Below are positions 9,345-32,152 of a stretch of DNA of 43,740 nucleotides, piece after piece. The stretch covers positions 1 through 43,740 of the forward strand of contig CALSSJ010000035.1 of the NCBI GenBank assembly GCA_943788985.1, read 5' to 3'. The position numbers and the translations under genes are program-made. The stretch's first letter is position 1, and every line of letters begins with the position of its first letter. The stretch comes from an uncultured Lentisphaerales bacterium (lineage in GTDB: Bacteria > Verrucomicrobiota > Lentisphaeria > JABSQK01 > UBA12247). The notes under the pieces were generated by a model, which worked only from the letters and a program-made list of their open reading frames with translations, was not told where the DNA came from and did no database searches.

Positions 9345-9356
9345 TTTAAAAATCCG

Positions 9357-9389: not shown

Positions 9390-9434
9390 ACCCCCAAAGG
9401 GTCGAAGCGTTCAAAGGGTCAAAGGGCCGAATCA

Positions 9435-9660
9435 TCATTCTCCGCCGCGGACCGGCCACACATAGAGCGCGTGGGTCTTGCCGGTCCCGCGCCCACGTCG
9501 CCGTAGCCCACGTCCACGTTCCACGCGTAGACGGTATAGCCCGCGTCCGTAGTACTGGACCAGTAGCCCCCCCCCTGCACGCCGCTGAACGGGTGCCCCG
9601 TGGGCAACGCCGGACCGGACGTTCCCGCAGGTCGATCAAGCTGTGCAGTTCTTTCTCCGT
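9435..9660 (-). other. DGR variable region (VR), allele 1
   Basis: Dense substitutions versus 31184-31410, mostly at codon positions 1-2, with invariant 3' TATGTGTGGCCGGTCCGCGGCGGAGAATGA (IMH-like). Confidence 0.8.
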
Positions 9661-10566
9661 CGGCAAGCGCCAGTCGCCAGCGGACGAGCCGTCGCTCAAG
9701 CCCTGCTGCCCGGCCGCCAGGCTGTTGCAGATGCTCAGTGCGTCTGCCCACGTCTCGGTCCCGTCGCCGGCATCCGCGTCCTGCAGCCAGATCAACCCCG
9801 TCAGATTGTCCGTCACTGTTCCATCACTGTTGTCGGTGAAGCGCGGGCTCGGCCAGACCACCCCGGTCTTCAGGTCGCCGTCGTCCCCCGTTGCGTACGA
9901 CGTCGTCTGCCCCGTCTTCTCCACCGCCGCCCCGCTCCCGCCACTGGCGGTGCCGGTGATCTCGGCGCCATCCACCCAAGCCTTCTTGCCGGTGGCGATG
10001 TCGCCCGCCGTGGCATCGCCACTGGACGTGTTCACCACATTGCTGTCCCCGGCCACGCCGAAGATGTTGGCCCCGGATCTGATGTTGCCGCTGGTCAGGT
10101 CGCTGTCTTGCGCCGTGGCGGTCTCCAAGCCGGTGTAGAGGCCGTTGGTGATCGTGATCGTGAGGCTGCCGTCCGCCCCGGTCAACGCATTGCCGGCTGG
10201 CACCGTACCGGTCTGCTGTCCCCAGGCGCCCGCGTCGAGGCCCCAAAAGACCTTGCCGCTGAGCACATCGCCGGCCGTGGCGGCGTTGCCGTTCGCCGCG
10301 GGAGCGGCGCCCATCACGTCGTCCAGTGTCGGCCCCGAGTCGCCCGGCGCGCCGGCGGCGAAGTCACCGGCAGTCGGTTCCTCGAAGGCGCCGGCGCGTT
10401 TGGCGCCGGCGGCACCAGTGTCCAAGCGATTGTAAATGTCTTCCAGATGGTACATGGCGCTGACGGGGAGGTTCGGAGCGGCAGGTGAGTCGGTGTCGCC
10501 AGCCACGGCGACGAAGGCCAGGGTCAAGGCGGTGATTGTGGTACGCGTGGTGGTCCAAATTCGCAT
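9435..10566 (-). CDS. Secreted DUF1566/Lcl C-type-lectin-fold protein, DGR target, copy 1 (small indels in the variable region)
   Basis: Signal peptide; KTGQTTSYATGDDG; RFTDNSDGTVTDNLTGLIW; WADALSICNSL; DWRLPTEKELHSL; across frameshifts YWSSTT...AWNV...YVWPVRGGE-stop at 9435; AGGAGG RBS. Confidence 0.9.
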
Positions 10567-10728
10567 GTGGATGTCCTCCTGTTGATTGTGCTGCGCAACT
10601 GCGCGCGTCTAGTGACGCGCGAGTATTTTAGCCGGCAACACGCCGGTAACAAACGCTTCTGGAAAAAAATTTCCAAGGTTGATGGCTGGTGATCGAGGAA
10701 CGGACCGATCTGCACTAGTCAACCCCGG

Positions 10729-10784
10729 CCTCATCCCGTCAGCGTATCTTGGCTGTATCGGGAAAAAGCAATTTCCTACCAGTT
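10729..10784 (+). repeat. 56-bp IS91/ISCR-type ori end (copies at 7903, 10729, 11585, 29628, 32234, 32371)
   Basis: CCTCATCCCGTCAGCGTATCTTGGCTGTATCGGGAAAAAGCAATTTCCTA(T/C)CAGTT; the TTCCTAT end resembles ISCR oriIS. Confidence 0.85.
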
Positions 10785-11640
10785 ATTCAGCGTTTGCTTC
10801 AGTACATGCTCAGATGCCCGTTCAGCCTGAAGCGCATGATTCAGACCACGGCGGATGGTAATGTTGCCTACCGAGCGACGCGCGAGAAGTGTATCGCCTT
10901 CCCGACCCGCAACGATACTCAGTTCCGTCGTGGTGTGTCGCGCAACTTTGAAATATTCGAGCCGCTCGACTTTATTGCTGAGGTCACGCAGCATATTCCG
11001 GAGCACGGCGCGCAGACAGTTCGCTATTACGGCTGGTATTCAAATAAGGCTCGCGGCATGCGCGCCAAGGCCGCAGAACAGGCAAAGGCAAAGCAGTCTA
11101 ATGGCCTTGAGCCCCTCACCACCGATGAGAGCGATACGCCGTATCGTAAATTATGCCGTATGCGCTGGTCGGCGCTGATTAAACGAGTTTACGAAGTAGA
11201 TCCATTGTGCTGTCCCCAATGTGGCGGCGCGATGACTATCGTCGCGTTCGTTGAGCAGAAGGACCAGGCCGATGTCATTGAGCGTATTCTCAAGCACTGT
11301 CAGCTATGGAATGATTACCCGCCCAGGGCGCCACCCAAGCCAGCCGCCGCTAGTGAATTTGAGCTGGAAGTTGAGTATGTAGACTTCGACGAGTTTCTGA
11401 TGGGTTTCTAAAAGCGCCCCGTCAGGAAGACGGTATCTCAATGCTCAAATTCGCGTATTCTACCTCCAAAACACCTATCTGCGCGGAATATCGGCACGCA
11501 GCAGGAAGGGAGGACGGCCGGGCCAGCTGGCCCGGCCGTCCTCCCTTCCGTTTCTTCGCCGTCTCCGCCCCGTTTCCTTGAATACCTCATCCCGTCAGCG
11601 TATCTTGGCTGTATCGGGAAAAAGCAATTTCCTATCAGTT
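10784..11640 (+). mobile_element. 5'-truncated IS91/ISCR-like element (transposase C-terminal part to 11411, plus ori end)
   Basis: 857 nt apparently identical to 28827-29683; LLQYMLR, VTQHIP, VRYYGWYSN, CPQCGG motifs. Confidence 0.9.
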
Positions 11641-12290
11641 ATCATATTCACACACATGATTACCACTCCTTACCACTGATCCCTCTGGCGGCGTTGGGCA
11701 TTGGTGCGGCAGCAGTGCGATTGCCACAGTGGTGGCGGGAGCAGCGCAAGCAGCTGATCAGCATTGTGGTCGCGGTGTGTGCCATCTACGGCCTGATCAT
11801 CGTTGGTACCTATGCCAAGACCCGAAACGTCAAGACCGTGATGAAGCTGGTTTTTGGCGCGACCGGCATGTCAAAGAAGTTTGTACACTACCTGCGGCCC
11901 AACAAGGCCCACCTGCAGCAACGCATCACCAATGCCAGGGCGATCGGCGAGCATGTGGGGCACTCCACCAACGTGGCATTCATGACCGAGGATTTCGGCA
12001 AATTTCTGCAGTACGAGGGGCAGCTATCTGGCGGGTACTACCCGGAGAAGGGTATTGACGGTGCCGCCGACGGCGAGCCGCCGACAGTTGACGCAATCGC
12101 GGCCTACGTGACCGAGAAGTTTCCCGATGGCCCCGACTATTTCGTAGTCACCGCCGTCAATGCCTACAATCAGCAGGAGACCTTGCGCACCTACCTGGCG
12201 CGGTTTCCGATCCTGGTGCAAGAAGAGGGTTATATGATCTTCGACACGCGCGCCACCTCTGCCCCCATCTCCCCACAGGACCCCAGCTAA
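11640..12290 (+). pseudogene. C-terminal fragment of a membrane protein, ArnT/GT39-like
   Basis: Frame open from the IS junction: YHIHTHDYHSLPLIPLAALGIG, then a TM helix and a soluble domain; stop overlaps the gltX start (TAATG). Confidence 0.55.
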
Positions 12291-13858
12291 TGCGAGTACG
12301 CTTCGCCCCCTCTCCGACCGGAAACGTCCACATCGGCAACATCCGCACCGCCATCTTCAACTATCTCGCCGCCCGCCATGCCGGTGGTGAGTTTCTGCTG
12401 CGCATTGAAGACACCGACCGCGAACGGTCTACGCCCGAGGCCGTGGAGGCGCTCTTCGATGTGATGCGCTGGATGAAGCTGGATATCGACGGCGAGCCAC
12501 TCTACCAGAGCAGTCGCCGCGACGTCCATCTCGAGGCAGCCGATCAGCTGCTGGCCAGCGGTGACGCCTACCGCTTTGCCAAGGGCGACGGCGGCGAGGC
12601 CACGCTGTTGCGCATGCCGTGGGATACAAGCGCCTTGCCATTCGTGCATACGGGCGAAACCGTCTCCCTGACCCTGCACGCGGATGAATCCGTGGTGATC
12701 GACCAAACCGGTGTGGCCTATGCGCTGAAAACCCGCAAGGGGAAAGCAGCGCCCCAGCAGGGGACACTGGCTGGCTTTCAGGACCTTGTCGTCTATGGGG
12801 CAGACGACGCCGAGCTCTTTCGCCTGGATGATGCGAGCGGCTTCATTGCTGGAACCGCCAGTGAGACCATTGCGGGCGCCGTACGCATGACCTTCACGCG
12901 GCGTGAAGTCGCGTTTGACGACTGCGTCAAGGGCCGCCTCAGCAAGCCAATCGACAGTATGCGCGACCAGGTCATTGTACGCAGTGATGGCAATCCCGTG
13001 TTTCACCTGGCCAATGTCTGTGACGACATCGTCATGGGCATCACCCACGTGATCCGCGGCGATGACCACGTCGAAAACACCTTTCGCCACGTGTTCCTCT
13101 ACACCGCGCTGGGCGCCGAGCTGCCGCAGTTTGCGCATTTGCCCATGATTGTCAACCAGCAACGCAAGCCGTACAGCAAGCGCGACGGCGATGCCTATGT
13201 GGGGGACTTTCGGGACAAGGGCTACCAGGCCGACGCCTTATTCAACTACCTGGCGCTCTTGGGCTGGTCCCCAGGCAACGATGTCGAGTACATGAACCGC
13301 GACGAGCTGGTGACCGCGTTTACCCTCGATCGCGTGCTCAGCTCCTCGGCACAGATGGACCATCGCAAACTCCTCGACTTCAACGGCCGCTATCTGGCCG
13401 ATCTCCCCGCTGCGGAGTTCGCAACCACCGCCTGGGAGCTTGCTGCCCATTACGACTGGTCAACCGGCGTGGAGCGCGGCTATTTTGACGCGGTCGCTGC
13501 GTTGCTACAAACCCGCACCAAGCTGTACACCGACATCGCCGGCGGGGAGCCCTACTTCATTGATGCCATCGCGTACGATGAGAAGGCGCAGCGGAAGTTC
13601 TTGAGCAAGCCCGATAACCAGGCGGCCCTGGCTGCATTGGCCGATCGCCTGGCTGAGCTCGCTGACTTTGCCCCTGGCAGCATTGAGGCCGCGGTTCACG
13701 CCACGACCGAGGCGGCCGAGATCAAGCAGGGCAAGCTCAACCAGCCCATTCGCGTGGCCCTGACCGGCCAGACCATGGGCGCCGGCATCTACGAAACCGC
13801 GGCGCTGCTCGGCCGCGACCGCTGCCTGCACCGCCTCCGGCAGGTCGCAGCAAGCTGA
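12290..13858 (+). CDS. gltX: Glutamate--tRNA ligase
   Basis: RVRFAPSPTG, HIGN (HIGH), LRIEDTD, ITHVIRGDDH, KPYSKR (KMSKS variant), anticodon domain PIRVALTG. Confidence 0.95.
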   Translation: MRVRFAPSPTGNVHIGNIRTAIFNYLAARHAGGEFLLRIEDTDRERSTPEAVEALFDVMRWMKLDIDGEPLYQSSRRDVHLEAADQLLASGDAYRFAKGDGGEATLLRMPWDTSALPFVHTGETVSLTLHADESVVIDQTGVAYALKTRKGKAAPQQGTLAGFQDLVVYGADDAELFRLDDASGFIAGTASETIAGAVRMTFTRREVAFDDCVKGRLSKPIDSMRDQVIVRSDGNPVFHLANVCDDIVMGITHVIRGDDHVENTFRHVFLYTALGAELPQFAHLPMIVNQQRKPYSKRDGDAYVGDFRDKGYQADALFNYLALLGWSPGNDVEYMNRDELVTAFTLDRVLSSSAQMDHRKLLDFNGRYLADLPAAEFATTAWELAAHYDWSTGVERGYFDAVAALLQTRTKLYTDIAGGEPYFIDAIAYDEKAQRKFLSKPDNQAALAALADRLAELADFAPGSIEAAVHATTEAAEIKQGKLNQPIRVALTGQTMGAGIYETAALLGRDRCLHRLRQVAAS

Positions 13859-13859
13859 G

Positions 13860-15083
13860 TCAGTGGATGGCGAGCGCCGGGATTGCGGTGACGCATTTCG
13901 CACCCCATTCGCGGGTGTAGCTCAACTGCTCGACAATCTCTTGACGAAGATTCCACGGTAAAATCAGGATGTAATCAGGCTGGGTTTCCCGGAGTGCCTC
14001 TTCGCTGACAATGGGAATGCGGCTTCCAGGCAGATAGCGTCCTTGCTTGGCAGGATTTCGGTCGACAACAGAGGAGATCAGATCTGGCCGAACGCCGGCG
14101 AAGTTGAGGAGAGTGTTGCCTTTTGCAGCTCCGCCATACCCCACGACACGCTTGCCCTCCTTGTGCTGCGTGATCAGGAAGTGCAGCAAGTCGTTCTTGA
14201 TACTTTCAACAGCCGCCTGAAAGCCACGGTAGCCGTCTTGGCAATTGACCTTGCGGGCCTGCTCCGCTTGGAGCGTCTGCTGCACGCGCTCGGTCGGAAC
14301 TTGGTTACCCGCTTGATGCTGGGCGTAGACACGAAGACTGCCACCGTGAACCGGCAATGGCTCGACGTCGACAACATGCAGGCCGTTGGTCTTGAGGATA
14401 TGGGACACGGACGTCAGGGACAGGTAGGAGAAATGCTCGTGGTAAATGGTGTCAAATTGGATATCCTGCAGCAGATTCGCCAACGATGGAAACTCAAAGG
14501 TCACGACGCCGGTATCATGAAGCAGTGCTGCGATTCCCTGGATGAAGTCGTTGATGTCGGGCACATGGGCAAGCACGTTGTTGGCGGCGATGAGATTCGC
14601 TGGCCCAATACGGGCGCGCAGATCTGAACCGGTCCCCTTGCCGAGGAAGACCTCTTCAATATGCAGCCCTTTGGCCCGCGCGGCGGCGGCGGTACTGGCT
14701 GTTGGTTCGATGCCAAGGCACTCAATGCCCTCGGAGTGCACATAGTGGAGCAGGCTGCCATCGTTTGCAGCGACTTCAATGAAGCGATGCCCAGGCTGCA
14801 GCAAACCGCGGGTCAGGCAGGTCTGCACGTATGTACGACAGTGCTCAAACCAGGTGCTTGAGAAGCCGCTGAAATACGCGTAATCGGCCGTAAACAGATC
14901 ATCTGCCCTGGCAAAATCAGCAGTTTGTACAAGCCAGCAGCTATTGCAGACGAGAACACGCAGTGGTAGCCAGTGTTCCGGTTGCTGCAGCGATTCCGGC
15001 TGCAGGTATGCATTGGACGGGGGCGCGCTTCCGAGATCAACAAGCTGCTGTGTGAGCGGTGCCTGGCAATGCCTGCAATTCAT
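13860..15083 (-). CDS. NDP-sugar C-methyltransferase (Zn-binding, class I SAM)
   Basis: MNCRHC, CNSCWLVQ, EVAANDG, QFDTIYHEH, HGGSLR, GAAKGNTLLN, ILPWN. Confidence 0.9.
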   Translation of the reverse strand: MNCRHCQAPLTQQLVDLGSAPPSNAYLQPESLQQPEHWLPLRVLVCNSCWLVQTADFARADDLFTADYAYFSGFSSTWFEHCRTYVQTCLTRGLLQPGHRFIEVAANDGSLLHYVHSEGIECLGIEPTASTAAAARAKGLHIEEVFLGKGTGSDLRARIGPANLIAANNVLAHVPDINDFIQGIAALLHDTGVVTFEFPSLANLLQDIQFDTIYHEHFSYLSLTSVSHILKTNGLHVVDVEPLPVHGGSLRVYAQHQAGNQVPTERVQQTLQAEQARKVNCQDGYRGFQAAVESIKNDLLHFLITQHKEGKRVVGYGGAAKGNTLLNFAGVRPDLISSVVDRNPAKQGRYLPGSRIPIVSEEALRETQPDYILILPWNLRQEIVEQLSYTREWGAKCVTAIPALAIH

Positions 15084-15640
15084 AGGGTGATTCCAATGTA
15101 GTGAGCGTCGAGCATGGGATGGTTCTGGTCGCGTTCGGACATATCGGCCACCGGCAGCGGCCAGAGAATTGCCAGGCATGGGTCCTGTGCCTGCAAGGCT
15201 CCTTCGCTCGTCGGTTCGTAGGCGGCGGTGTGGACATACAGCATCTCGCAATCCGCGGACAGCGTCTGAAACCCATGGGCAAAGCCCTCGGGGATGACCA
15301 GACTGGTCTGGTTGCTCTGTGAGAGAACGGTTCCGTGCCACTGCAGGAAGGTGGGCGAACCAGCACGAAGATCGACCGCGACATCAAACACTTCGCCGCG
15401 CAGGCAACTGATGAGTTTGGTCTCGGCATGAGGCGGATGCTGAAAGTGCAGGCCACGAATGGTCCCTTGCAAGCGTGTCAGTGTCCGGTTGACCTGCACA
15501 ATCTGACGTTCACCGAGCAATGGTTTCAAGTCGTCTGCGCAATACATCCGTTCCAGGAATCCACGTGAGTCGGCCAACGGCTTCCTGACAAGTTCATGCA
15601 GGCCTGCGATTGGCGTGGTTCGGCTCTCGAATCGCGACAT
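15080..15640 (-). CDS. rfbC: dTDP-4-dehydrorhamnose 3,5-epimerase family
   Basis: DSRGF, GTIRGLHFQ, DVAVDLRAGSPTF, IPEGFAHGFQTL. Confidence 0.9.
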   Translation of the reverse strand: MSRFESRTTPIAGLHELVRKPLADSRGFLERMYCADDLKPLLGERQIVQVNRTLTRLQGTIRGLHFQHPPHAETKLISCLRGEVFDVAVDLRAGSPTFLQWHGTVLSQSNQTSLVIPEGFAHGFQTLSADCEMLYVHTAAYEPTSEGALQAQDPCLAILWPLPVADMSERDQNHPMLDAHYIGITL

Positions 15641-16704
15641 CAGACGCCCACGTATGCCTGCAGCTGGCGGATCGACAGCGCGCGCATATCTGCGCCCGCG
15701 GCAAACGCTTTGTACCACTCGCAGGTTGCCTGCAGGGTCGTCTCAACGTCCCATTTCGGTTTCCAGCCGAGGAGGCTGCGGGCTCTCTTGCTGTCAAGGC
15801 GCAGCAATCCGGCTTCGGGCTTGGTGGTGTCCCCCGGTGTTACCTGGACGCTGGCGTTGCCCCACAGGTCGGCCAGCGACTTGGTTACCTCTCCAACTGT
15901 GCGATGATCGTCGTCGCTGGGGCCGAAATTCCAGCCCGTGGCGAAATCCGCGCCACGCTCGCCCAGCATTGCTTCGGCGAGCGAGAGATAGCCGGAGAGT
16001 GATTCGAGGACATGCTGCCAGGGACGCACGGACTGCGGCGAACGAATCTCTACCGGTTGTCCAGCAGAAAAGGCGCGGACACAATCCGGGACCAGTCGGT
16101 CGGCCGCCCAATCGCCACCGCCGATCACGTTTCCCGCGCGCGCAGACGCGAGGTGAATGCCGGCGGGTGCCAGGAAGCTACAGCGGTATGAATTGACAAT
16201 AATCTCGCTGGCTGCTTTGCTCGCGCTGTAGGGATCCTTGCCGCCCAGAGGTTCGTGTTCCGCGAAGGCGACGCCACGTTCGTCATTGGCATAGACTTTG
16301 TCTGTGGTGACGCAGACGACAGCGCGAACTGATGGACAGTTCCGGGCAGCTTCCAAGACATGAGCAGTCCCAATGACATTGTCACGCAGCGTAGCCACGG
16401 GTGCCTCGTAGCTCTGACGGACCAACGGCTGGGCCGCCAAGTGAAATATGACCTCTGGCTGTCCCTGTTTCAGAGTGGCCCGCAGCCGTGGCAGATCAGC
16501 CAGGTCACCTCGTATGTCTCGAACGTCTTGTGCGAGCTTGGTAGCAGCAAAGAACGAGGGCGTGGTTGGCGGATCCAAGGCGTAGCCAGTAACGCGTGCG
16601 CCGGCCTGGGCCAAACGCAGGCTCAGCCATCCGCCCTTGAAGCCGGTATGGCCTGTGACCAAGACCGGTCTGTCTTGCCAGAAGTCTGAATGAAGTGTCG
16701 ACAC
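15640..16704 (-). CDS. rfbG: CDP-glucose 4,6-dehydratase
   Basis: VLVTGHTGFKGGWL, HLAAQPLVR, TTDKVY, DPYSASK, RAGNVIGGGDW, RPWQHVLE. Confidence 0.95.
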   Translation of the reverse strand: MSTLHSDFWQDRPVLVTGHTGFKGGWLSLRLAQAGARVTGYALDPPTTPSFFAATKLAQDVRDIRGDLADLPRLRATLKQGQPEVIFHLAAQPLVRQSYEAPVATLRDNVIGTAHVLEAARNCPSVRAVVCVTTDKVYANDERGVAFAEHEPLGGKDPYSASKAASEIIVNSYRCSFLAPAGIHLASARAGNVIGGGDWAADRLVPDCVRAFSAGQPVEIRSPQSVRPWQHVLESLSGYLSLAEAMLGERGADFATGWNFGPSDDDHRTVGEVTKSLADLWGNASVQVTPGDTTKPEAGLLRLDSKRARSLLGWKPKWDVETTLQATCEWYKAFAAGADMRALSIRQLQAYVGV

Positions 16705-16724
16705 GAGGCGGGCAGCAGTCCTAC

Positions 16725-17495: not shown

Positions 17496-17672
17496 TCAGA
17501 GATTCCTAGGCATTATCAGAGTAGATGTAGGGATACCTTACACATGAAGCCAAAAGAGCAAGTGCTTTCCATGGATTGACGGCTTGCAATGGCCCTCGCA
17601 GCCTGTCGGAGAGGCGGTCTTTGGAATCGCATGTATGTTGCCAACCCTGAAACCGGTGCTTCTCTTGATCCT

Positions 17673-19979: not shown

Positions 19980-19995
19980 TTCGATCACGATATCG

Positions 19996-22355: not shown

Positions 22356-22375
22356 GTCGCGGGGCTCGATCCGTC

Positions 22376-23401: not shown

Positions 23402-23507
23402 TAGAAGCCCTGATAGAAGAAGGGACTTCCGCTCTTACCGAGGGCGACCACCGCAGCAAGCCTCAGCGCAACCCACAGGATGCGTATCGCAATCTTATAC
23501 GCTGGCT

Positions 23508-24641: not shown

Positions 24642-24647
24642 GGAATG

Positions 24648-26453
24648 CTATCCAACTACATGCGTCTCGGCCGACAAAGCCTCGTCAAGAGCCAAGTACC
24701 ACCTGCAGGTATCCTGGTCCTCAAAGCCAAGCCGGTCGTATAGATCAGCGACAAGGTTGTTCTTCTTTGTCTGGATATACTCACCCAGCAATCCCTGGTA
24801 GCCTTGTCCGCGGGCACGGTCCACCAGCGTATTCAGCACAAATGCTTCCACCGTGCGGCCGATCACCCTGCAGCTCATTAACCACGTATCAATTCGCAGG
24901 ACATCAGGCGACTCCCGCACTCCGATAAGTACCGCGATCAGACCGTAATCGCCGAAACGATCGGACAGGCTAACAGCAAACGCGATTGTCCCTGGAATTG
25001 CGATCATCGCTTGCAGTTGCTCACTGCTATGCCGCCTGGTCGTCAGGTTAAACTGATTCGTTTTACCTACGAGCTGCGACACGCGGGGCAATCGTGTCTC
25101 ATCAATCGGCACGACAGTCGCCTTCATCTGCAAATGCTGCAAATAGGCGCCCATGTCGGTGAATCCTTGCTCGGCTTCGCGCCGCTCGCTCTCCACCCGG
25201 TACTGCTGGGTACGAAGAAGGTCCTCATCCGTTCGCCGTAAGCTGTCAAATGCCCCCGTTTCAGCCAATGCCAATGTGTAGTCCGCAGGGTCCGGTGGTA
25301 CGTCCACGACCAAGACATCGGGGAGCGCCAAGCGTACTTCCTCGCGTTCGGCAGGATTGTCATCGAAGAAGACGAAACTATCTGCACCAAGCCGCAACTC
25401 GGCGGCGATCTGTCGAATCGACTCGCTCTTGGGCTGCCAACTGGCCTGGAACGCTGCAAAGTCGGCGAGCGTCAAGACCATTTCCGGGTTTCGCTCGAAC
25501 GGCTCGCGAGCAATCGGGTCGTCATTCTTGGAGCAGATCGCCAGCAAGATCCCACGGTCCGTCAGTGCTTTCACGTATCGCTGGAATGCCTCAAACGCCT
25601 CACCGTCCGGACCGCCACCAATGGTAACCCCCAGTGGCCCTTCTTCGGCAACAACGCCTCCCCAGAGGGTATTGTCAAGATCCAGTATCAGCACCTTATG
25701 GGTACCGCGCTGAATAATCTGAACAGTGCGTGCCAAGCCATGTGCCAACTCCGTGAGCCCAGCGTCAGAGTAGGGCTGTTTCGTCCAAAAGTAGTTTCGC
25801 TGGCTGTAGAATTGTTGCTTACCCGTCCACGAAGAAAGGGCGTCTACATCGAACCAGATCGCCGCATCCGGCAGTGTCTTGCGAAGCCCCTGGTTTGCCA
25901 TCCGCACGGCATCCAAGCTACCTCCATCTTGGACGTCAAGATAGAGGCCGTCTGGCGAGAAATACGGCCAATCGAAGCCAACCTGTATCACTGTTGCCTG
26001 TAGCTTTGTTGCCAGCTGCCAGGCGGATCGCCACATCACCGGACTCAAACTTGGGGCAATGGCCTCGCTACCATGCCCCTTCGAATGTGCATGGAGCCAT
26101 GGAATCAGGATTACCGCATCCAGGCGTTTACCGGTCTCCCAAGACGAGAGTGCGGGCATCGTAGAGTCGTACGGCGCTTCGGATACACGTACACACAGTC
26201 CGGCTTCCGCAAGGCGCAAGGAAATCAACGGGGCAAGCCAGCTGGTCGTAACCTGACCGGCCAACAGAATGCTGGCGTCAAGCCTCTCATCCGCAGTTGC
26301 AGCAGTGATCTTTGCACAAAGTCGAGCAGCGCGCGCCCGGGCCAATTCTGACAACTCCCCTTGCAGTGCCTGGCGCAAAGATTGAAACGCTTCAGCAGGC
26401 TCCTCGTTTGACAATGCAGCAGCGGACACCGCGAGCCCCGCCTTGGCCTTCAT
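24648..26453 (-). CDS. FkbH-like HAD-IIIC protein with C-terminal GNAT-like domain
   Basis: KVLILDLDNTLWGGV, CSKND, FFDDNPAER, KTNQFNLTT, DRFGDYGLI, MSCRVIGR. Confidence 0.95.
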   Translation of the reverse strand: MKAKAGLAVSAAALSNEEPAEAFQSLRQALQGELSELARARAARLCAKITAATADERLDASILLAGQVTTSWLAPLISLRLAEAGLCVRVSEAPYDSTMPALSSWETGKRLDAVILIPWLHAHSKGHGSEAIAPSLSPVMWRSAWQLATKLQATVIQVGFDWPYFSPDGLYLDVQDGGSLDAVRMANQGLRKTLPDAAIWFDVDALSSWTGKQQFYSQRNYFWTKQPYSDAGLTELAHGLARTVQIIQRGTHKVLILDLDNTLWGGVVAEEGPLGVTIGGGPDGEAFEAFQRYVKALTDRGILLAICSKNDDPIAREPFERNPEMVLTLADFAAFQASWQPKSESIRQIAAELRLGADSFVFFDDNPAEREEVRLALPDVLVVDVPPDPADYTLALAETGAFDSLRRTDEDLLRTQQYRVESERREAEQGFTDMGAYLQHLQMKATVVPIDETRLPRVSQLVGKTNQFNLTTRRHSSEQLQAMIAIPGTIAFAVSLSDRFGDYGLIAVLIGVRESPDVLRIDTWLMSCRVIGRTVEAFVLNTLVDRARGQGYQGLLGEYIQTKKNNLVADLYDRLGFEDQDTCRWYLALDEALSAETHVVG

Positions 26454-27388
26454 GAGCCCTGTGGCACACAAACAAAGGCGAAGTCCACCGTTGGATCCCG
26501 AGAGGCAGCTGCATAGTCAGCCACCGCGAACGACTGCTCAGCGACCACTTGCAGCCCCGCCTGCTCTAAGACGTCATGCACTTGTGAAATATCAGTGAAC
26601 AGGTGCAAATGATCAATCGCATTCGAATTAGCCACCGTCGTAATGAAAAAGGGCGCCCCCGGTTGAAGAAACGACTGAATCTGCCCAAACGAAAAGACTG
26701 GATCTGGAATGTGCTCCATCACCTCGGCACAGATGGCCCAGCGCAAACTGCCCGACGCGAGGTCCATCGGCTTGCAGACATTGCCGGCGTTCAGTTGATA
26801 GCGATGCTCTGGCAGTCCTGCCTGAGCCAGAAGCCGGCCGGCAAACTGGATCGCATGCTCACTGATATCGTAGCCATGCACAATGCGTTCCTGACTCTCA
26901 AGCAGCAAGTCGTGAAGGTAGAGGCCATGGCCAAAACCAAACTCCGCCCCCACACCCGCGTCGGGCACTCGGCTAAGAAACTCACGTCGATAAAATTTGT
27001 GCATGTCAAAATGAATTGGCCAGAACGCGTGAGAAAGCATCAGCCCGTCGAGATAGAAGCCCAGCATGACATCCGGGTTCGAGTAGACGTTCTCATTCAC
27101 AGTGTCAAAGGAATCATTGCTGTATTCGCCGGTAGCAACGAAGGCTGCCTGTTCCTTCAGGTAGGCGAGCGTGTACTCGAGAATCGCCTCCACTGGTTTT
27201 CCGCCCAATGACTGCGATAGGGCAACAAGGCGTTGGGCTTCCTCCCAGAACGCTTCGCCATGGGTTTCGGCCTGGTACGCGATCTGCTTGGCCAGTAGAT
27301 TGCGCCCCTGTTCCAAGATTCCACTGCAAACTTCAGCGGCCAGCGGATAGTGCGAGGCCGCGTCGGCGATTCTCTCTTCAGTCGTCAT
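26450..27388 (-). CDS. Class I SAM-dependent methyltransferase
   Basis: EFGFGHG, GYDISE, AEVMEHIPDP, IDHLHLF. Confidence 0.85.
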   Translation of the reverse strand: MTTEERIADAASHYPLAAEVCSGILEQGRNLLAKQIAYQAETHGEAFWEEAQRLVALSQSLGGKPVEAILEYTLAYLKEQAAFVATGEYSNDSFDTVNENVYSNPDVMLGFYLDGLMLSHAFWPIHFDMHKFYRREFLSRVPDAGVGAEFGFGHGLYLHDLLLESQERIVHGYDISEHAIQFAGRLLAQAGLPEHRYQLNAGNVCKPMDLASGSLRWAICAEVMEHIPDPVFSFGQIQSFLQPGAPFFITTVANSNAIDHLHLFTDISQVHDVLEQAGLQVVAEQSFAVADYAAASRDPTVDFAFVCVPQGS

Positions 27389-27389
27389 G

Positions 27390-27833
27390 CTAACTCAGGC
27401 TCTCGATGAGTTCAACGGTAATGCCTCGGGTAAACGCAGGCGGGACAAAGTTAATGGCAATTGGGCCGGCAACCACTGGGGTTGGCTCCAGCAACTGTAC
27501 ATCGTTCGCCGCGAGAACCTCGGTGGCCTCGCGGAGGTCATCGACTTCCATGGCGATGTGATGGAGTCCGCCAATGCCCCTATTATGTCGTGCTAATGGG
27601 CTCTCTGGCCCATCAGGAATGACGAGTTCCAGGCATGCCGACTCCGTGCTGGTAAACAGACACCAAGCCCGGTACTGCTCCACGTAATAGCGGCGTTCTA
27701 CCGTTTGTCCGAGTAATCCCAGAAACTCATCACTTGATTCACGGTCCAGGATCACGATTCCGACGTGATGCAACCGCGGAGATAGTGCCTGTAGCGACTG
27801 CGGCAACACCGCTTGGGCTTGGCCCTCAGTCAA
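27390..27833 (-). CDS. VOC-family protein (methylmalonyl-CoA epimerase-like)
   Basis: LHHVGIV, LELVIP, GGLHHIAMEVDDL, VELIE; TTG start overlapping the ACP stop. Confidence 0.85.
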   Translation of the reverse strand: MTEGQAQAVLPQSLQALSPRLHHVGIVILDRESSDEFLGLLGQTVERRYYVEQYRAWCLFTSTESACLELVIPDGPESPLARHNRGIGGLHHIAMEVDDLREATEVLAANDVQLLEPTPVVAGPIAINFVPPAFTRGITVELIESLS

Positions 27834-28069
27834 GCGCTGACTCCTTTCGCGTCCAACAGATCCAGCAACTCTCCGACCGTATCCAGCGTCGCAATCTCTG
27901 TGGACGTAAATCGTACCCCAAATGCCCTCTCGATGTGCACAAACAGAGTGACATGCATCAAGGAGTCCCAATCATCTATGTCGGCCGCAGTCGTTGACCG
28001 GGTAACTTTAATGTCATCATCTTCAAAGACATCACAGAATAGATCATTCACTTTTTGCTGAACGCTCAT
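27830..28069 (-). CDS. Acyl carrier protein
   Basis: 79 aa, acidic, WDSL phosphopantetheine site. Confidence 0.9.
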   Translation of the reverse strand: MSVQQKVNDLFCDVFEDDDIKVTRSTTAADIDDWDSLMHVTLFVHIERAFGVRFTSTEIATLDTVGELLDLLDAKGVSA

Positions 28070-28202
28070 CCCAAATCCTTTGGCTCTCGTATTAGCCCAA
28101 AGACGTTACGCTATTCTTGTTCGACGAATTCGCACCCAGCTCCTATCGAATCTGATGCGCGACACGGTTAATCCCCAAGAGCCCTGGACCACGAGATCGA
28201 CG

Positions 28203-28404
28203 CTACTCGTCCGCGAAGTAGTAGGTCGACACCTCTGGATTGGTGTACGTGTGCTGGCCTGTCAGGGAGATCGCATTGCTCCAAACGGTGTGTCCATCGA
28301 GGAATCCGGTCGTGCCGCCATAGAAGGTATCGCCCAAGTTCGGCGAGGTGGTTGTCCAACCACTGAAGAAGAGATGCGCATCGATCTTGCGATGGGTTCC
28401 AATA
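28203..28404 (-). pseudogene. Possible C-terminal remnant of an H-X9-DG-type (prepilin-associated) protein cut by the IS
   Basis: GGTTGFLDGHTVW resembles the GGNxxFxDGHVxW motif; 5' part abuts the transposase. Confidence 0.4.
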
Positions 28405-29683
28405 CTGTGTTTTACCATGCCGAAACGGTTCCGCGCTTACTTTCGCTATGACCGGGATCTACTCAAGCATCTTCCCCGCCTTGCCTGGGAAACAGTGCGC
28501 GACGTCTACCGTGCCGTGCTCGATCGCGATGACGTTGTTCCCGGCATGGTCGGCGCCCCACAGAGCTTTGGCGATCTAATAAATTGGCAACCGCATATGC
28601 ACACTCTATCCACCGATGGAGCGTTTGCCAAAGACGGCACGTATCTGCCTGTGCCCGATGATCTGCCGATTGAGCCGTTCCTCAAGCTCTGGGAGCACAA
28701 GATCTTTGCATTGCTACTGGCAGAGGGCCGCATCACCGAGAAGGTCGTCGAGCAGATGCGTAGCTGGAGGCACTCCGGGTTCAGCGTTGATAAGAGCGTC
28801 TACCTGCCGGCCGGTGACCAGGCTGCTATTCAGCGTTTGCTTCAGTACATGCTCAGATGCCCGTTCAGCCTGAAGCGCATGATTCAGACCACGGCGGATG
28901 GTAATGTTGCCTACCGAGCGACGCGCGAGAAGTGTATCGCCTTCCCGACCCGCAACGATACTCAGTTCCGTCGTGGTGTGTCGCGCAACTTTGAAATATT
29001 CGAGCCGCTCGACTTTATTGCTGAGGTCACGCAGCATATTCCGGAGCACGGCGCGCAGACAGTTCGCTATTACGGCTGGTATTCAAATAAGGCTCGCGGC
29101 ATGCGCGCCAAGGCCGCAGAACAGGCAAAGGCAAAGCAGTCTAATGGCCTTGAGCCCCTCACCACCGATGAGAGCGATACGCCGTATCGTAAATTATGCC
29201 GTATGCGCTGGTCGGCGCTGATTAAACGAGTTTACGAAGTAGATCCATTGTGCTGTCCCCAATGTGGCGGCGCGATGACTATCGTCGCGTTCGTTGAGCA
29301 GAAGGACCAGGCCGATGTCATTGAGCGTATTCTCAAGCACTGTCAGCTATGGAATGATTACCCGCCCAGGGCGCCACCCAAGCCAGCCGCCGCTAGTGAA
29401 TTTGAGCTGGAAGTTGAGTATGTAGACTTCGACGAGTTTCTGATGGGTTTCTAAAAGCGCCCCGTCAGGAAGACGGTATCTCAATGCTCAAATTCGCGTA
29501 TTCTACCTCCAAAACACCTATCTGCGCGGAATATCGGCACGCAGCAGGAAGGGAGGACGGCCGGGCCAGCTGGCCCGGCCGTCCTCCCTTCCGTTTCTTC
29601 GCCGTCTCCGCCCCGTTTCCTTGAATACCTCATCCCGTCAGCGTATCTTGGCTGTATCGGGAAAAAGCAATTTCCTATCAGTT
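28405..29683 (+). mobile_element. IS91/ISCR-like rolling-circle element, 5'-truncated (HUH transposase to 29454, plus ori end)
   Basis: FTMPKRFR, QSFG...PHMH (HUH), WRHSGFSV, single catalytic Tyr LLQYMLR, VRYYG, CPQCGG; N-terminal Zn-binding domain missing; left boundary approximate. Confidence 0.9.
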
Positions 29684-29802
29684 TTGGCCGAGATTTGGCC
29701 GCCGACATCCGCCAACTGACCGCTCGGATCAACGATGGCGAGAGTCCAGGTGCATCAATCATTCAACATTCAATATTCGATGTCCCCATCTCGTACCTCG
29801 AG

Positions 29803-30347
29803 CTACCGGAACCTAATGACCGTCCCTGAGAGTCCGGGCATCGCCACCCCGTAGGTGGGAAGTCCGCGTTCCGGAGATGAACCCAGCCGATGCCCTCCGC
29901 CCAGGCGTAGCCGTCAAACTCCCCGTTCGTCAGGTTGACGTGTCACCTCGCCGTGACTCGGGTTTGACGTTTGACCCAGCCGGCAGTCTCGCTCCAGGGC
30001 GTAGCCGGAGAGATTGCCAGCGCCGTCCATGTTCACGCCCCAGGTGGTCGGGGTCAGTATTGGCGTGCGGCCCGCTGCCGGCGCCGGCGCCGAGCTTGAT
30101 CCAGCCGACGCGCTCCGCCCAGGCGTTAGCCTTTCAGGTAGCTGTTGGCGCCGTCCAGCACGACGGTGACGCTGCCGTTGGCATCGCCCCAGTTCTGCCA
30201 GCCGGCGGTTTCAGACCAACTGTGCTTGGCGCCTGGATCGATGCTGCGATCGTCCGCTGTGGCGACGCTTGCCGCAAGCAACAACAGCGCCATGGCAGCA
30301 GCGCTCGCAGATATTCCGTGGCGAACATGAGTGTGACGGCAAATCAT
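29803..30347 (-). CDS. Secreted Trp-repeat protein, copy 2 (several frameshifts, probably sequencing errors)
   Basis: Aligns end to end with 8074-8607. Confidence 0.7.
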
Positions 30348-30402
30348 GGGGTTTTTCTCCTTCGTTTGTGTATCTCTGTGGTTTAGGTATATGGAAGTAC
30401 GG

Positions 30403-30854
30403 TCATGTGGCGGCGCCGGTCCAACGCCAGCCCAGGACACGTTCAAAAATGCCGTGGATGCGCCGCTCGGTCTGGTGGATCCAGGCGGACGGGTGCCGCG
30501 GCGTCCCACAGGAGCCGCTTATGCCAGCATGAGCGCATCCTGGTGGAAGCGCGCCGGCAACAGGCCCATGCGTGCCCAGAAATCCGCGAGTGAGTGCAGC
30601 GGGCCCGGCGAAAAGCTCCCAGTGACTGCCGCGCTGGATGACGACCGCGTGCCCGGGCAAACAGCGGACAAAGAACTGGCACTGCGCCCGATATGTTTGG
30701 GCCGCATACGAGAACCGGGCAGCGCAGCGCCACCTGCGTCTCGTTCCACGCAAAGTACTCCTTCAGCCAGGGGAAGCGCTCCTGCAGCCCGGCAACCAGC
30801 CGACGCCAGGCGGCCCGCCGAAAGTGGTCCCGAGTAGGACGTCAACCACTGCTG
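30403..30854 (-). pseudogene. DGR RT C-terminal remnant, copy 2
   Basis: Aligns with 8663-9109; same junction sequence CGGGCAGCAGTGGTTGACG. Confidence 0.6.
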
Positions 30855-31092
30855 CCCGCACCAGCTTGCCCACGTACATGTCCAGGCCTGACTTCGGGAA
30901 ACCGCCCACCACCACTGGTGCATCCACGTCGCCGGCCATCTTCAGCTTCAACCCCGTCACTGCCGAGACCTGCCCGTGCGTCATCATTCATCACCTGCAT
31001 GAACGTACCCACCCTGCATCAACAACACCGCGTCCGGGTGCGCCGCCTTCAGGCTCGAATACTGCTCACATAACGTAGTCGAAAAATACCAT
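30855..31092 (-). pseudogene. MutS domain I-like ORF, copy 2
   Basis: Aligns with 9110-9344. Confidence 0.75.
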
Positions 31093-31102
31093 TTTAAAAA
31101 TC

Positions 31103-31152
31103 CGACCCTTTGGGGGTCCAGGGGGCAAGCCCCCTGGACCCCCAAAGGGTCG
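31103..31152. repeat. Perfect inverted repeat with 24-bp arms downstream of VR copy 2
   Basis: CGACCCTTTGGGGGTCCAGGGGGC-AA-GCCCCCTGGACCCCCAAAGGGTCG. Confidence 0.9.
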
Positions 31153-31183
31153 AAGCGTTCAAAGGGTCAAAGGGGCCGAATCA

Positions 31184-31410
31184 TCATTCTCCGCCGCGGA
31201 CCGGCCACACATAGAACGCGTTGGACTTGCCGGTGCCGTAGCTCACGCTGCCGTAAGTTCACGTACACGCTAAACGCGTTGGCGGCATTGCCCGCGTTCG
31301 TAGTACTGGACCAGTAGAACGACGACTGCACGCCGCTGAACGGGTGCCCCGTGGGGCAACGCCGGATCGAAGTTCCCGACGTCGATCAAGCTGTGCAGTT
31401 CTTTCACCGT
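31184..31410 (-). other. DGR variable region (VR), allele 2
   Basis: Counterpart of 9435-9660; retains several AAC/AAT codons where allele 1 has GAC/TAC/TAT/GGC/CAC. Confidence 0.8.
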
Positions 31411-32072: not shown

Positions 32073-32152
32073 GTGGATGTCGTCCTGTTGATTGTGCTGC
32101 GCAACTGCGCGTGTGGAGTAAGGCGGGAGTACGGTAGCCGGAAGTACGCCGG

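What the first reader, a model, noticed from the sequence alone, without database searches (positions are those of the whole stretch)
9435..31410. Two copies of a DUF1566 gene whose 3' ends differ with a DGR adenine-mutagenesis signature
Seen: 9435-9660 and 31184-31410 differ by roughly 30 substitutions in about 200 nt (manual alignment), while most of the cassette is near-identical apart from 1-nt indels. Codon pairs on the coding strand include GAC/AAC, TAT/AAT, ACC/GCC, GTC/GCC, TAC/AAC, AAC/AGC, GAC/TAC, GGC/AAC, GAC/AGC, GGC/AGC, ACC/TCC, CAC/AAC, CTC/TTC, GGC/TTC and GGT/GAT. Positions 1-2 change and position 3 is kept. YWSSTT and the terminal YVWPVRGGE are invariant. Exceptions are TGG/TTT and one indel-ambiguous codon; GGG/TCG twice would need AAG in the template. 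Established: DGRs mutate template adenines in AAY codons, and C-type-lectin-fold domains such as DUF1566 are typical targets. Inference: these are two independently diversified VR alleles of one template.
Basis: partly seen in the sequence, partly recalled or inferred. Interest (0 to 1): 0.9.

Follow-up and report, generated by a model that had tools for sequence, protein, structure and literature searches.

The report
Two decayed DGR cassettes with different variable regions
The two gene copies do end in hypervariable regions of the kind written by a diversity-generating retroelement, but both copies sit in broken cassettes that have lost the template and most of the reverse transcriptase, so the window cannot have made the differences itself.

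Summary
The two ~3-kb cassettes (7788-10789 and 29513-32294) are 96% identical. Of their 79 substitutions, 29 fall in the 226-nt 3' end of a DUF1566/Lcl_C gene, and 27 of 30 differences there hit codon positions 1-2.

The DGR reading is supported from outside the window:
- Relatives L003 and L029 carry the same gene order as intact DGRs (target, MutS-like MSL, bAvd, TR, RT), with TR/VR mismatches almost only at TR adenines.
- 15-19 of the 24 A/B differences lie on adenine columns of those TRs.
- At least 12 VR alleles exist on a near-identical backbone. They differ from a closely related TR peptide mostly at Asn, Thr, Asp and Lys codons.

- Both window copies share one internal deletion. It joins MSL codon 79 to RT codon ~348 and removes avd, the TR and the RT catalytic core.
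- No TR or RT core is anywhere in the window.
- Both VRs are frameshifted as assembled.
- 5-9 differences are not adenine-type.
- The copies are bounded by IS91-family transposase sequence and repeated 56-nt ends.

The VRs were therefore written by a DGR located elsewhere. This is a known kind of system.

The parts
9435..10566 (-). Copy A of the target gene. It has a signal-peptide-like N-terminus and a DUF1566/Lcl_C C-terminal domain. ATG at 10566, true stop TGA at 9435-9437. The frame is broken three times inside the last ~200 nt.
   Evidence: Pfam Lcl_C 3e-16. 96.8% identity to P0004 over residues 1-313. Frames.
9438..9583 (-). VR of copy A: the span homologous to the TRs of related DGRs, from GGCGTGCAG to GGAGAA. 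It contains a 9-G run where all other alleles encode Ser-Ser-x.
   Evidence: Alignment A2, statistics, allele comparison.
9615..9656 (-). Second variable patch of copy A (codons matching P0004 residues 304, 313, 316, 317). It lies upstream of the TR-homologous span. Not explained by a canonical TR.
   Evidence: Column entropies. TR starts.
9350..9432 (-). 3' module after the stop in copy A: tandem 8-nt nnYTTTGR units, then a GC hairpin (core CAGGGGGC-loop-GCCxCCTG) and a T run. One arm differs from copy B by 7 clustered substitutions (9357-9375).
9108..9344 (-). Fragment of the MutS-like accessory gene (MSL), codons 1-79 only.
   Evidence: Pfam MutS_I 5e-11. 76-77% identity to the L003 MSL, which is 106 aa when intact.
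9106..9110 (-). Deletion junction. MSL codon 79 is joined out of frame to RT codon ~348. Missing relative to L003: the MSL 3' end, bAvd, the TR and RT residues 1 to ~347.
   Evidence: The exact 171-aa ORF spanning the junction (P0001) is seen on 37 contigs.
8663..9109 (-). 3' fragment of the DGR reverse transcriptase gene (C-terminal ~148 codons plus stop). No RVT_1 catalytic region.
   Evidence: 51% identity to L003 RT residues 349-491. About 90% identity over a 164-aa BLAST alignment to the C-terminus of the intact 493-aa RT P0123; the first ~18 residues of that alignment run past the junction and are probably spurious. No Pfam hit.
8074..8607 (-). Secreted repeat protein (GYAWxExxGW repeats), a conserved downstream neighbour of this target family.
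   Evidence: 52-57% identity to L003 4800-5390. A homologue lies near the target in 29 of 79 related loci.
31184..32072 (-). Copy B of the target gene. It is the short form lacking the 246 nt of A 9948-10193, and it is riddled with single-base insertions.
   Evidence: Removing two bases makes its last 80 codons identical to the C-terminus of P0009.
31187..31334 (-). VR of copy B. The allele is identical at protein level to P0004, P0009, P0128, P0130, P0133, P0142, P0143 and P0145.
31103..31152 (-). Perfect 23-bp hairpin downstream of VR B, followed by a T run.
   Evidence: 50-nt palindrome, 96%. (-34.5 kcal/mol, z -7.4).
30853..31092 (-). MSL fragment of copy B, with the same junction as in A.
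   Evidence: Coordinate map, tblastn.
30403..30854 (-). RT 3' fragment of copy B, frameshifted.
29803..30347 (-). GYAW-repeat protein gene of copy B, frameshifted.
28348..29454 (+). IS91-family (Y2_Tnp) transposase gene immediately upstream of cassette B.
   Evidence: Pfam Y2_Tnp 2e-21. NCBIfam transpos_IS91 2.3e-26, below its curated cut-off.
10785..11640 (+). 5'-truncated copy of the same transposase gene plus the 171-nt R element. It belongs to an 857-nt stretch (10784-11640) that is 100% identical to 28827-29683 and abuts cassette A.
7788..7958 (+). 171-nt element R (46-nt perfect palindrome plus a 56-nt end). Other copies at 11470-11640 and 29513-29683. The 56-nt end alone also occurs at 10729-10784, 32234-32289 and 32371-32426, so each cassette is bracketed by direct copies.

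Best explanation
The window holds two copies of a decayed diversity-generating retroelement (DGR) cassette of the MSL/Avd type.

In intact relatives the order is: DUF1566 target with a C-terminal VR, MutS-like MSL, bAvd, TR, RT, then a GYAW-repeat secreted protein. In both window copies one and the same deletion joins MSL codon 79 to RT codon ~348. Avd, the template repeat and the whole RT catalytic core are therefore gone.

What remains is the target gene with its VR, the conserved VR 3' end and downstream hairpin module, and two gene stumps. The copies lie next to an IS91-family transposase gene and are bracketed by direct 56-nt repeats. The duplication was probably made by that element or by recombination between its ends (inference).

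Most of the sequence differences between the two VRs were written by DGR adenine mutagenesis: reverse transcription of a TR RNA with random misincorporation opposite A, then replacement of the VR by the cDNA. The cassettes cannot do this themselves and they share the deletion. So the writing must have come from an intact sister DGR. A close one exists on an 18.5-kb contig in the databases.

Two routes are possible. The sister DGR may home in trans onto these orphan VRs, which I favour slightly. Or already diversified VRs may have been imported by homologous recombination.

Shown: the anatomy, the deletion, the clustering and codon bias, and the fit to related TRs. Inferred: the source of the diversification, its timing, and the role of IS91.

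The single-base frameshifts and the poly-G run are probably consensus errors of the assembly. They could instead be real decay.
For: Observation:
- 29 of 79 substitutions fall in 226 of ~2753 columns (p 1.8e-12).
- Codon positions 1/2/3 = 15/12/3.
- In 15 of 30 differing pairs one copy has A on the coding strand. About half is what I calculate for two independent random rewrites of A.

Relatives, from the 79 loci:
- 5 have a TR within 10 kb with A-specific mismatches: L002 19 of 21, L003 21 of 21, L022 17 of 18, L029 21 of 25, L057 18 of 20.
- L003 and L029 have target, MSL (MutS_I 3.7e-14 and 3.9e-15), bAvd, TR, RT (RVT_1) and a GYAW gene in that order.
- The window's pieces match them: MSL 76% and 73%, RT C-terminus 51% and 45%, GYAW 52% and 44%.

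Fit to TR adenines over 148 TR-homologous columns:
- A and B differ at 24 columns.
- 15 fall on L003-TR adenine columns (Fisher p 4.5e-4).
- 17 on L029 (6e-5), 18 on either (8e-6), 19 on any of 5 TRs.
- Control: the two L003 VRs differ at 18 columns, and all 18 are on adenines of their own TR.

Population:
- In 24 near-identical proteins, variability is confined to residues 304-368. The hypervariable columns hold only residues reachable from AAC.
- 12 distinct VR alleles differ from TR peptide P0151 at 13-18 residues each, 12-15 of them at N/T/D/K.
- P0151, the intact RT P0123 and target P0005 are all listed on an 18,505-nt contig.

Deletion:
- MSL residues 1-79 and RT residues ~348-491 are adjacent in the window.
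- There is no avd, RT N-terminus or TR anywhere in the window.
- The exact junction-spanning ORF P0001 is on 37 contigs.

Literature (Wu et al. 2018, PMC5758913; passages read):
- MSL is a DGR accessory gene found together with avd.
- DUF1566 VRs form their 'category d'.
- DGRs can act on non-adjacent and remote targets.
Against: - No TR or RT for these VRs was seen as DNA. The nearest TR is known only as a peptide from another contig, and as DNA from other phyla.
- 5-9 of 24 differences fall on non-adenine columns (GGG GGG versus TCG TCG, TGG/TTT, GTC/GCC, GGG/GGC). Bona fide pairs in relatives show 0-4 such mismatches out of 18-25.
- A and B share one codon more than TR peptide P0151. Their own template is therefore not that TR.
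- Five differences (9615-9656) lie upstream of where all related TRs start.
- Allele B is found unchanged on 8 backbone variants, and the upstream patch is reshuffled relative to it. That argues for stable alleles and recombination rather than frequent rewriting.
- Both VRs are out of frame as assembled. Part of what is compared may be consensus error.
Confidence: 0.78

Rival explanations
1. Frozen alleles. The VRs were diversified by a DGR in the past. They now sit unchanged in RT-less cassettes that are copied by the IS91-family element and reshuffled by homologous recombination. No diversification occurs at these two loci today.
For: - Allele B is identical in 8 proteins with different backbones (long or short form, NLPVS or SNPAS N-terminus, different 313-319 patches). 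A second allele recurs in 2-3 proteins per sub-variant.
- The junction ORF is seen on 37 contigs, against one contig for the intact RT.
- Remnant-only loci recur in relatives: L013, L028, L034, L051 and L054.
Against: - All relic copies descend from one deletion event, yet at least 12 VR alleles exist on this backbone. Some source of new VRs acted after the deletion, unless many of those alleles sit in intact cassettes. That could not be checked.
- A 75.9-kb contig lists a similar pair of copies (P0003, P0137) with other VR alleles.
Confidence: 0.4
2. Ongoing trans-diversification. An intact sister DGR elsewhere in the same genome uses the conserved VR 3' end and hairpin of these orphan cassettes as homing sites and keeps rewriting them.
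For: - The VR 3' end is identical in both copies (9435-9466). The TTTGR-repeat module from 9376 to 9434 differs only by one single-base indel near 9424.
- The core hairpin is conserved across phyla.
- An intact, closely related DGR exists in the databases (P0123, P0151, P0005).
- Remote targets are documented for other DGRs (PMC5758913, passages).
- Frameshifts in copy A are confined to the VR: 3 indels in 226 nt against none in the rest of cassette A. That is what a consensus over heterogeneous reads would give.
Against: - There is no evidence that the intact DGR is in the same genome.
- Its TR peptide is one codon shorter than alleles A and B.
- Recurrence of allele B argues for stability.
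- 3'-anchored homing would not leave the 3' VR constant while changing the upstream patch.
Confidence: 0.35
3. No DGR is involved. The two copies are paralogues whose ligand-binding loops diverged by ordinary point mutation, positive selection and gene conversion.
For: - 5-9 of 24 differences are at non-adenine columns.
- A second variable patch lies outside any TR homology.
- Other small polymorphic patches exist at 10463-10472 and 10606-10639.
Against: - The cassette contains stumps of DGR genes.
- Relatives with the same VR are proven TR/VR pairs.
- Differences are enriched on TR adenine columns (p down to 8e-6).
- Variable columns carry only AAC-derived residues.
Confidence: 0.05
4. Assembly artefact. 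The VR differences, or the second copy itself, come from mis-assembly or a chimeric consensus of a repeated, heterogeneous region.
For: - There are 29 single-base indels between the copies, and 24 of them duplicate a neighbouring base. 26 of the extra bases are in B.
- Copy A has a 9-G run where every other allele has Ser-Ser-x.
- Both VRs are out of frame.
Against: - Clean database proteins reproduce allele B exactly: P0009 over the whole short form, and P0143 for the B-type VR on an A-type backbone (long form, NLPVS N-terminus). P0131 and P0132 carry an allele close to A.
- Another contig (75.9 kb) also lists one long and one short copy.
- The substitutions follow codon phase and TR adenine columns, which sequencing errors would not do.
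Confidence: 0.1

Closest known systems
Legionella-type DGRs: 'Architecture D' with MSL plus avd, and target 'category d' (DUF1566/CLec2), as classified by Wu et al. 2018 (PMC5758913; passages read)
   Same: - The target ends in a DUF1566/Lcl_C domain carrying the VR.
- A small MutS-domain-I protein follows the target.
- Intact relatives (L003, L029) have target-MSL-bAvd-TR-RT and A-specific TR/VR mismatches.
   Different: - The window copies lack avd, the TR and the RT catalytic core.
- They occur twice on one contig, next to IS91-family sequences.
- A GYAW-repeat secreted protein gene is a constant downstream neighbour.
Treponema denticola DGR and other DGRs with non-adjacent or remote targets (Wu et al. 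2018, passages read)
   Same: VRs without an adjacent RT or TR can be diversified by a DGR elsewhere in the genome.
   Different: Here the orphan VRs carry stumps of their own former DGR genes, and the acting DGR has not been seen in the same genome.
Bordetella phage BPP-1 DGR, the prototype (recalled, not read here)
   Same: Adenine-specific mutagenic retrohoming into a C-type-lectin-fold VR. The VR 3' end is conserved and a GC hairpin lies downstream.
   Different: - Chromosomal rather than phage context.
- A DUF1566 rather than an Mtd target.
- An MSL accessory gene.
- The hairpin lies ~50-60 nt after the stop, behind a tandem TTTGR array.
IS91/ISCR rolling-circle elements that carry adjacent DNA along (general knowledge, recalled)
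   Same: A Y2-type transposase gene is followed by a hairpin-containing end. That end recurs in direct orientation around the passenger DNA.
   Different: The ends, target sites and activity were not tested. One junction places the 56-nt end directly against an internal point of the transposase gene (10784/10785).

Membership tests
Complete DGR | DGR-type reverse transcriptase gene in the locus | tested here: not met
   Only the C-terminal ~148 codons remain (8663-9109 and 30403-30854). There is no RVT_1 hit among the 40 long ORFs, and no tblastn match to RT residues 1 to ~330 anywhere in the window.
Complete DGR | Template repeat: a second, non-coding copy of the VR | tested here: not met
   Self-BLAST, an ungapped 45-mer scan (best non-self match 27 of 45) and tblastn with TR ORFs find only the two VRs.
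Complete DGR | VR/TR mismatches confined to TR adenines | tested here: inconclusive
   The window's own TR is unavailable. Against the TRs of relatives, 15-19 of 24 A/B differences are on adenine columns. Against the related TR peptide P0151, allele B differs at 15 residues, 13 of them N/T/D/K, and carries one extra codon.
Complete DGR | Avd accessory gene | tested here: not met
   No bAvd or 23S_rRNA_IVP Pfam hit in the cassette ORFs. No tblastn match to the L003 or L029 Avd.
Complete DGR | MSL (MutS-like) accessory gene, Architecture D | tested here: met
   MutS_I 5e-11 and 76-77% identity to the L003 MSL, but only codons 1-79 of ~106 are present.
Complete DGR | Conserved VR 3' end (IMH-like) and downstream hairpin used for homing | not testable with these tools
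   The sequence from TATGTGTGG to the stop is identical in both copies. The core hairpin CAGGGGGC-loop-GCCCCCTG recurs in L003 (twice) and L022. Its function cannot be tested here.
DGR target gene, DUF1566/CLec2 class | C-terminal Lcl_C/DUF1566 domain with variability confined to its last ~50 codons | tested here: met
   Pfam Lcl_C hits. The entropy profile of 24 near-identical proteins peaks at residues 304-368 only.
IS91-family insertion sequence | Y2-type (HUH) transposase | tested here: met
   Pfam Y2_Tnp 77.3 bits, above the cut-off of 20.9. NCBIfam transpos_IS91 92.7 bits, below its curated cut-off of 125.
IS91-family insertion sequence | Defined oriIS and terIS ends and a tetranucleotide target site | not tested
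   Six direct copies of a 56-nt end were found. They were not compared with known IS91 or ISCR ends.

The most novel reading that the evidence does not exclude
The cassettes are 'satellite' DGR targets. They are RT- and TR-less derivatives that keep only the VR and its homing signals. An IS91-family element multiplies them (the junction ORF is on 37 contigs), and one intact master DGR keeps rewriting them in trans. One retroelement would then drive a dispersed, multi-locus family of hypervariable surface proteins.
Probability: 0.3. Interest if true: 0.6.

Novelty: new member of a known kind. Interest (0 to 1): 0.4.

Why it matters
This is a clear natural example of how DGR loci decay and spread. 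One deletion removes the enzyme and the template but leaves a target gene with intact homing signals, and a transposon-linked duplication then multiplies that target.

If such orphan targets are still rewritten in trans, DGR surveys that require an adjacent RT and TR would undercount the diversified proteome. Repeated VRs would also be a predictable source of frameshifted consensus in metagenome assemblies.

If the alleles are frozen, the locus shows how a hypervariable repertoire is fixed into a stable paralogue family.

Either way the system belongs to a well-described class (DUF1566 targets, MSL/Avd DGRs). The value is illustrative rather than fundamental.

Tried and rejected
1. A TR inside the window. 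Self-BLAST, a 45-mer ungapped scan and tblastn with TR ORFs found only the two VRs.
2. A TR in the source genome. A 28-nt VR-core pattern scan of genome contigs gave 0 matches and did not even find the window's own VRs. The source genome is therefore not in that collection.
3. Homologues of the RT fragment by word search. The 'near lengths' search returned only the window's own ORF, and the 'longer' search returned nothing.
4. tblastn of the MSL fragment against plasmids and phages. It gave only MutS genes or unrelated MutS_I-containing genes, with no DGR context.
5. The idea that the RT C-terminal fragment is itself MutS_I-like. There is no BLASTP alignment to the L003 MSL and no Pfam hit, so I rejected it for the window. 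L022's RT tail does match MSL weakly.
6. The idea that the TTTGR array is DGR-specific. It occurs, with at least 3 units, in 15 of 79 loci, and 11 of those have no DGR trace within 10 kb. I rejected it as a DGR marker.
7. Taking the 406-aa ORF (9346-10566) at face value. Its last ~95 residues are out-of-frame readings of the VR and the 3' module, so I rejected that.
8. Rfam and tRNA scans. They found only tRNA-Ala at 35530-35606 and nothing in the cassettes.
9. Searches failed on a frame slip in my coordinates. I corrected it.

Unchecked:
The DNA of the 18.5-kb contig with the intact DGR, the 75.9-kb contig and the 37 junction-bearing contigs could therefore not be read.
- No reads were available.

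Full report
**1. What is in the sequence**

The window has bacterial-type gene content. It holds glycosyltransferase and sugar-modification genes, gltX at 12290-13858, a 5'-truncated hsdR at 32443-35154 and one tRNA-Ala. The protein database lists 43,740 nt as the longest contig for the window's own proteins, so the window is probably a whole contig.

Self-comparison shows two copies of a ~3-kb cassette: A at 7788-10789 and B at 29513-32294. They are 96% identical. A global alignment gives 79 substitutions. Its indels are 29 single-base ones (counted), one 3-nt one, and a 246-nt in-frame segment present only in A at 9948-10193.

**2.

- 29 of the 79 substitutions lie in 9435-9660, which is 226 of ~2753 columns (p 1.8e-12).
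- After phasing copy B by its identity to the clean protein P0009, the copies differ at 30 of 245 columns. The split by codon position is 15/12/3, and one position-3 case is an artefact of phasing.
- YWSSTT and YVWPVRGGE-stop are invariant.
- In 15 of 30 differing pairs one copy has A on the coding strand. By my own calculation, about half is expected for two independent random rewrites of a template A.

Both VRs are out of frame as assembled. Copy A has two extra bases and one missing base. Copy B has two extra bases. The C-terminus of the 406-aa ORF 9346-10566 is therefore meaningless.

**3. Anatomy of the cassette (all genes on the minus strand)**

- Target gene, 10566 to 9435, with an Lcl_C/DUF1566 domain.
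- A 3' module made of tandem nnYTTTGR units, a GC hairpin and a T run.
- An ORF starting at 9344 whose first 79 codons are a MutS domain I (5e-11).
- A 148-codon reading frame ending at 8663 with no family hit.
- A secreted protein with GYAWxExxGW repeats, 8607 to 8074.

No third copy of the VR exists in the window. No RVT_1 domain was found among the 40 long ORFs.

**4. Relatives explain the cassette**

A VR-core pattern scan of genome contigs found nothing, not even the window itself, so the source genome is absent from that collection. A profile of target homologues then fetched 79 loci.

Five of these loci carry a TR within 10 kb with the classical signature:

| Locus | Mismatches at TR adenines |
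|---|---|
| L002 | 19 of 21 |
| L003 | 21 of 21 |
| L022 | 17 of 18 |
| L029 | 21 of 25 |
| L057 | 18 of 20 |

L003 and L029 have the order target, MSL (106-129 aa; MutS_I), bAvd, TR, RT (496 and 551 aa; RVT_1), GYAW protein.

The window's MutS-like stump is 76% and 73% identical to their MSL. The 148-codon frame is 51% and 45% identical to the last ~145 residues of their RTs. The GYAW protein is 52% and 44% identical.

In pairwise alignments, the window sequence matches MSL residues 1-79 and then continues directly with RT residues ~348-491 in another frame. So a single deletion with its junction at ~9106-9110 removed the MSL 3' end, avd, the TR and RT residues 1 to ~347. That includes the whole catalytic region.

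Copy B is colinear with A across the junction. tblastn of intact RT, Avd and TR-ORF queries against the window confirms that nothing else is present.

This matches 'Architecture D' (MSL plus avd) and target 'category d' (DUF1566) of Wu et al. 2018 (PMC5758913; passages read).

**5. Do the differences fit adenine mutagenesis?**

I used the TRs of relatives as proxies, over 148 TR-homologous columns where A and B differ at 24:

| Proxy TR | Differences on adenine columns | Fisher p |
|---|---|---|
| L003 | 15 of 24 | 4.5e-4 |
| L029 | 17 of 24 | 6e-5 |
| L003 or L029 | 18 of 24 | 8e-6 |
| Any of 5 TRs | 19 of 24 | 5.5e-5 |

As a control, the two VRs of L003 differ at 18 columns, and all 18 lie on adenines of their own TR.

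The TR adenines inside YWSSTT are also left unchanged in the VRs of relatives. Conserved adenines are therefore not an argument against a DGR.

The exceptions in the window are GGG GGG versus TCG TCG, TGG/TTT, GTC/GCC and GGG/GGC.

**6. Population view**

The protein database holds many near-identical versions of the target.

- In 24 of them, variability is confined to residues 304-368. The hypervariable columns contain only residues reachable from AAC.
- There are 12 distinct VR alleles.
- A representative search with the L003 TR ORF found P0151 (81 aa). Its tail is identical to the abnormal C-terminal extension of P0146.
- P0151, the intact RT P0123 (493 aa) and target P0005 are all listed on an 18,505-nt contig. 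The C-terminus of P0123 is about 90% identical to the window fragment over a 164-aa BLAST alignment, whose first ~18 residues run past the junction and are probably spurious. An intact sister DGR therefore exists.
- The 12 alleles differ from the P0151 TR peptide at 13-18 residues each. Of those, 12-15 are at N/T/D/K and 0-3 elsewhere.
- Allele B differs at 15 residues, 13 of them N/T/D/K. The others are W to F and S to T, plus one extra codon that copy A shares.
- Copy A resembles the allele of P0131 and P0132.

**7. Points against a simple 'two fresh alleles of one template' reading**

- (a) No template or enzyme is in the window, and both copies share the deletion.
- (b) The exact ORF spanning the junction (P0001) is seen on 37 contigs, while the intact RT is seen on one. 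Relic cassettes appear to be the common form.
- (c) Allele B recurs unchanged on 8 backbone variants. The patch at residues 313-319 is reshuffled relative to it. That points to recombination among copies.
- (d) Five A/B differences (9615-9656) lie upstream of where all related TRs begin. This second variable patch is unexplained.
- (e) The related TR is one codon shorter than A and B.

On the other side, many VR alleles behind what looks like a single deletion event require a source of diversity that acted after the deletion. This could be trans-homing by an intact DGR or import by recombination. A 75.9-kb contig also lists a long and a short copy with yet other VRs (P0003, P0137).

**8. Frameshifts**

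- Of the 29 single-base indels between the copies, 26 are extra bases in B, and 24 duplicate a neighbouring base.
- Clean versions of B exist (P0009 and others).
- Cassette A is clean except inside its VR, which has three indels and a 9-G run where every other allele encodes Ser-Ser-x.

I read these as consensus errors in a repeated and possibly heterogeneous region. Real decay cannot be excluded without reads.

**9. Mobile context**

- An IS91-family transposase gene (28348-29454) precedes cassette B.
- Its 3' part plus a 171-nt element R recurs 100% identical over 857 nt right after cassette A (10784-11640 = 28827-29683).
- R ends in a 56-nt sequence present six times in direct orientation, bracketing both cassettes.
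- A dcm fragment abuts A and a truncated hsdR abuts B.
- Mobilisation by this element, or recombination between its ends, is an inference. The ends were not compared with known IS91 ends.
- A full-text search for 'diversity-generating retroelement' plus 'IS91' returned two papers. Neither has either term in its title or abstract (search listing only).

**10. Verdict**

The finding is real, and its DGR interpretation is right in kind. The locus itself is a pair of orphaned, decayed DGR cassettes, and their VR differences were made elsewhere.

It is a new member of a known class. DGR decay to stumps recurs in relatives: L013, L028, L034, L051 and L054.

Whether the orphans are still rewritten in trans is open, and that is the only part with more than routine interest.

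Noticed in passing
28348-29454; 10784-11640; 7788-7958; 56-nt copies at 7903, 10729, 11585, 29628, 32234, 32371: An IS91-family transposase gene, an 857-nt 100%-identical partial second copy, a 171-nt element with a 46-nt perfect palindrome, and six direct copies of its 56-nt end bracketing both cassettes. At 10784/10785 the 56-nt end abuts an internal point of the transposase gene. A 137-nt unit is duplicated in tandem at 32153-32426.
   Followed up: partly
8074-8607 and 29803-30347; L003 4800-5390: A secreted protein with GYAWxExxGW repeats and no Pfam or NCBIfam family lies near the DUF1566 target in 29 of 79 related loci. In intact DGRs it follows the RT, so the DGR genes sit between two genes that are otherwise neighbours.
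   Followed up: partly
9376-9432 and 31124-31183; related loci just after the target stop: A tandem array of 3-4 eight-nt units (nnYTTTGR) follows the stop codon directly and is followed by a GC hairpin. It is present (at least 3 units) in 15 of 79 loci, with or without a DGR within 10 kb. Function unknown.
   Followed up: partly
9357-9375 versus 31105-31123: Seven clustered substitutions change one arm of the downstream hairpin. Copy B forms a perfect 23-bp stem (-34.5 kcal/mol, z -7.4). Copy A forms a shorter core stem plus a different outer pairing with upstream sequence. Copy A's form resembles relatives such as L051.
   Followed up: partly
9948-10193 (absent from copy B at 31699): An in-frame 246-nt (82-codon) segment is present in copy A only. 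Both long (375-376 aa) and short (293-294 aa) forms occur as clean proteins in the database, each combined with several VR alleles and both N-terminal types.
   Followed up: partly
10463-10472, 10606-10639, 8100-8109: Further small clusters of substitutions between the copies. They include an N-terminal patch (NLPVS versus SNPAS, both seen in database alleles) and 13 changes just upstream of the start codon. This suggests mosaic recombination among cassette copies.
   Followed up: no
9567-9575: A run of nine G on the coding strand in VR A replaces the Ser-Ser-x codons found in all other alleles. Most alleles have SS there, and a few have PA or SQ. It may be a consensus artefact or a non-adenine change.
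   Followed up: partly
L013, L028, L034, L051, L054: Related loci from other phyla keep only stumps of DGR genes next to the target: MSL residues 1-65, 27-74, 1-31 and 1-98, and RT residues 5-41. DGR loss with leftover fragments is therefore recurrent in this family.
   Followed up: partly
L022 12484-12720; P0283: In some related DGRs the C-terminal extension of the RT itself resembles MutS domain I. Wu et al. 2018 noted this for three RTs. The window's RT fragment shows no such similarity.
   Followed up: partly
5383-8004: Gene fragments lie upstream of cassette A: part of a DDE transposase, the C-terminal part of an AIPR protein, and the C-terminal part of a C-5 cytosine methyltransferase.
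   Followed up: no
32443-35154: hsdR begins at profile position 71 of HSDR_N, right at the edge of cassette B, so it is 5'-truncated there.
   Followed up: no
6210-6478 and 42893-43161: A 270-nt direct repeat at 79% identity, unrelated to the cassettes.
   Followed up: no
12290-28000: Between the two cassettes lies a polysaccharide or sugar-modification gene cluster. It includes a Wzx-like flippase, glycosyltransferases, several methyltransferases, an FkbH-domain protein and an MBOAT acyltransferase.
   Followed up: no
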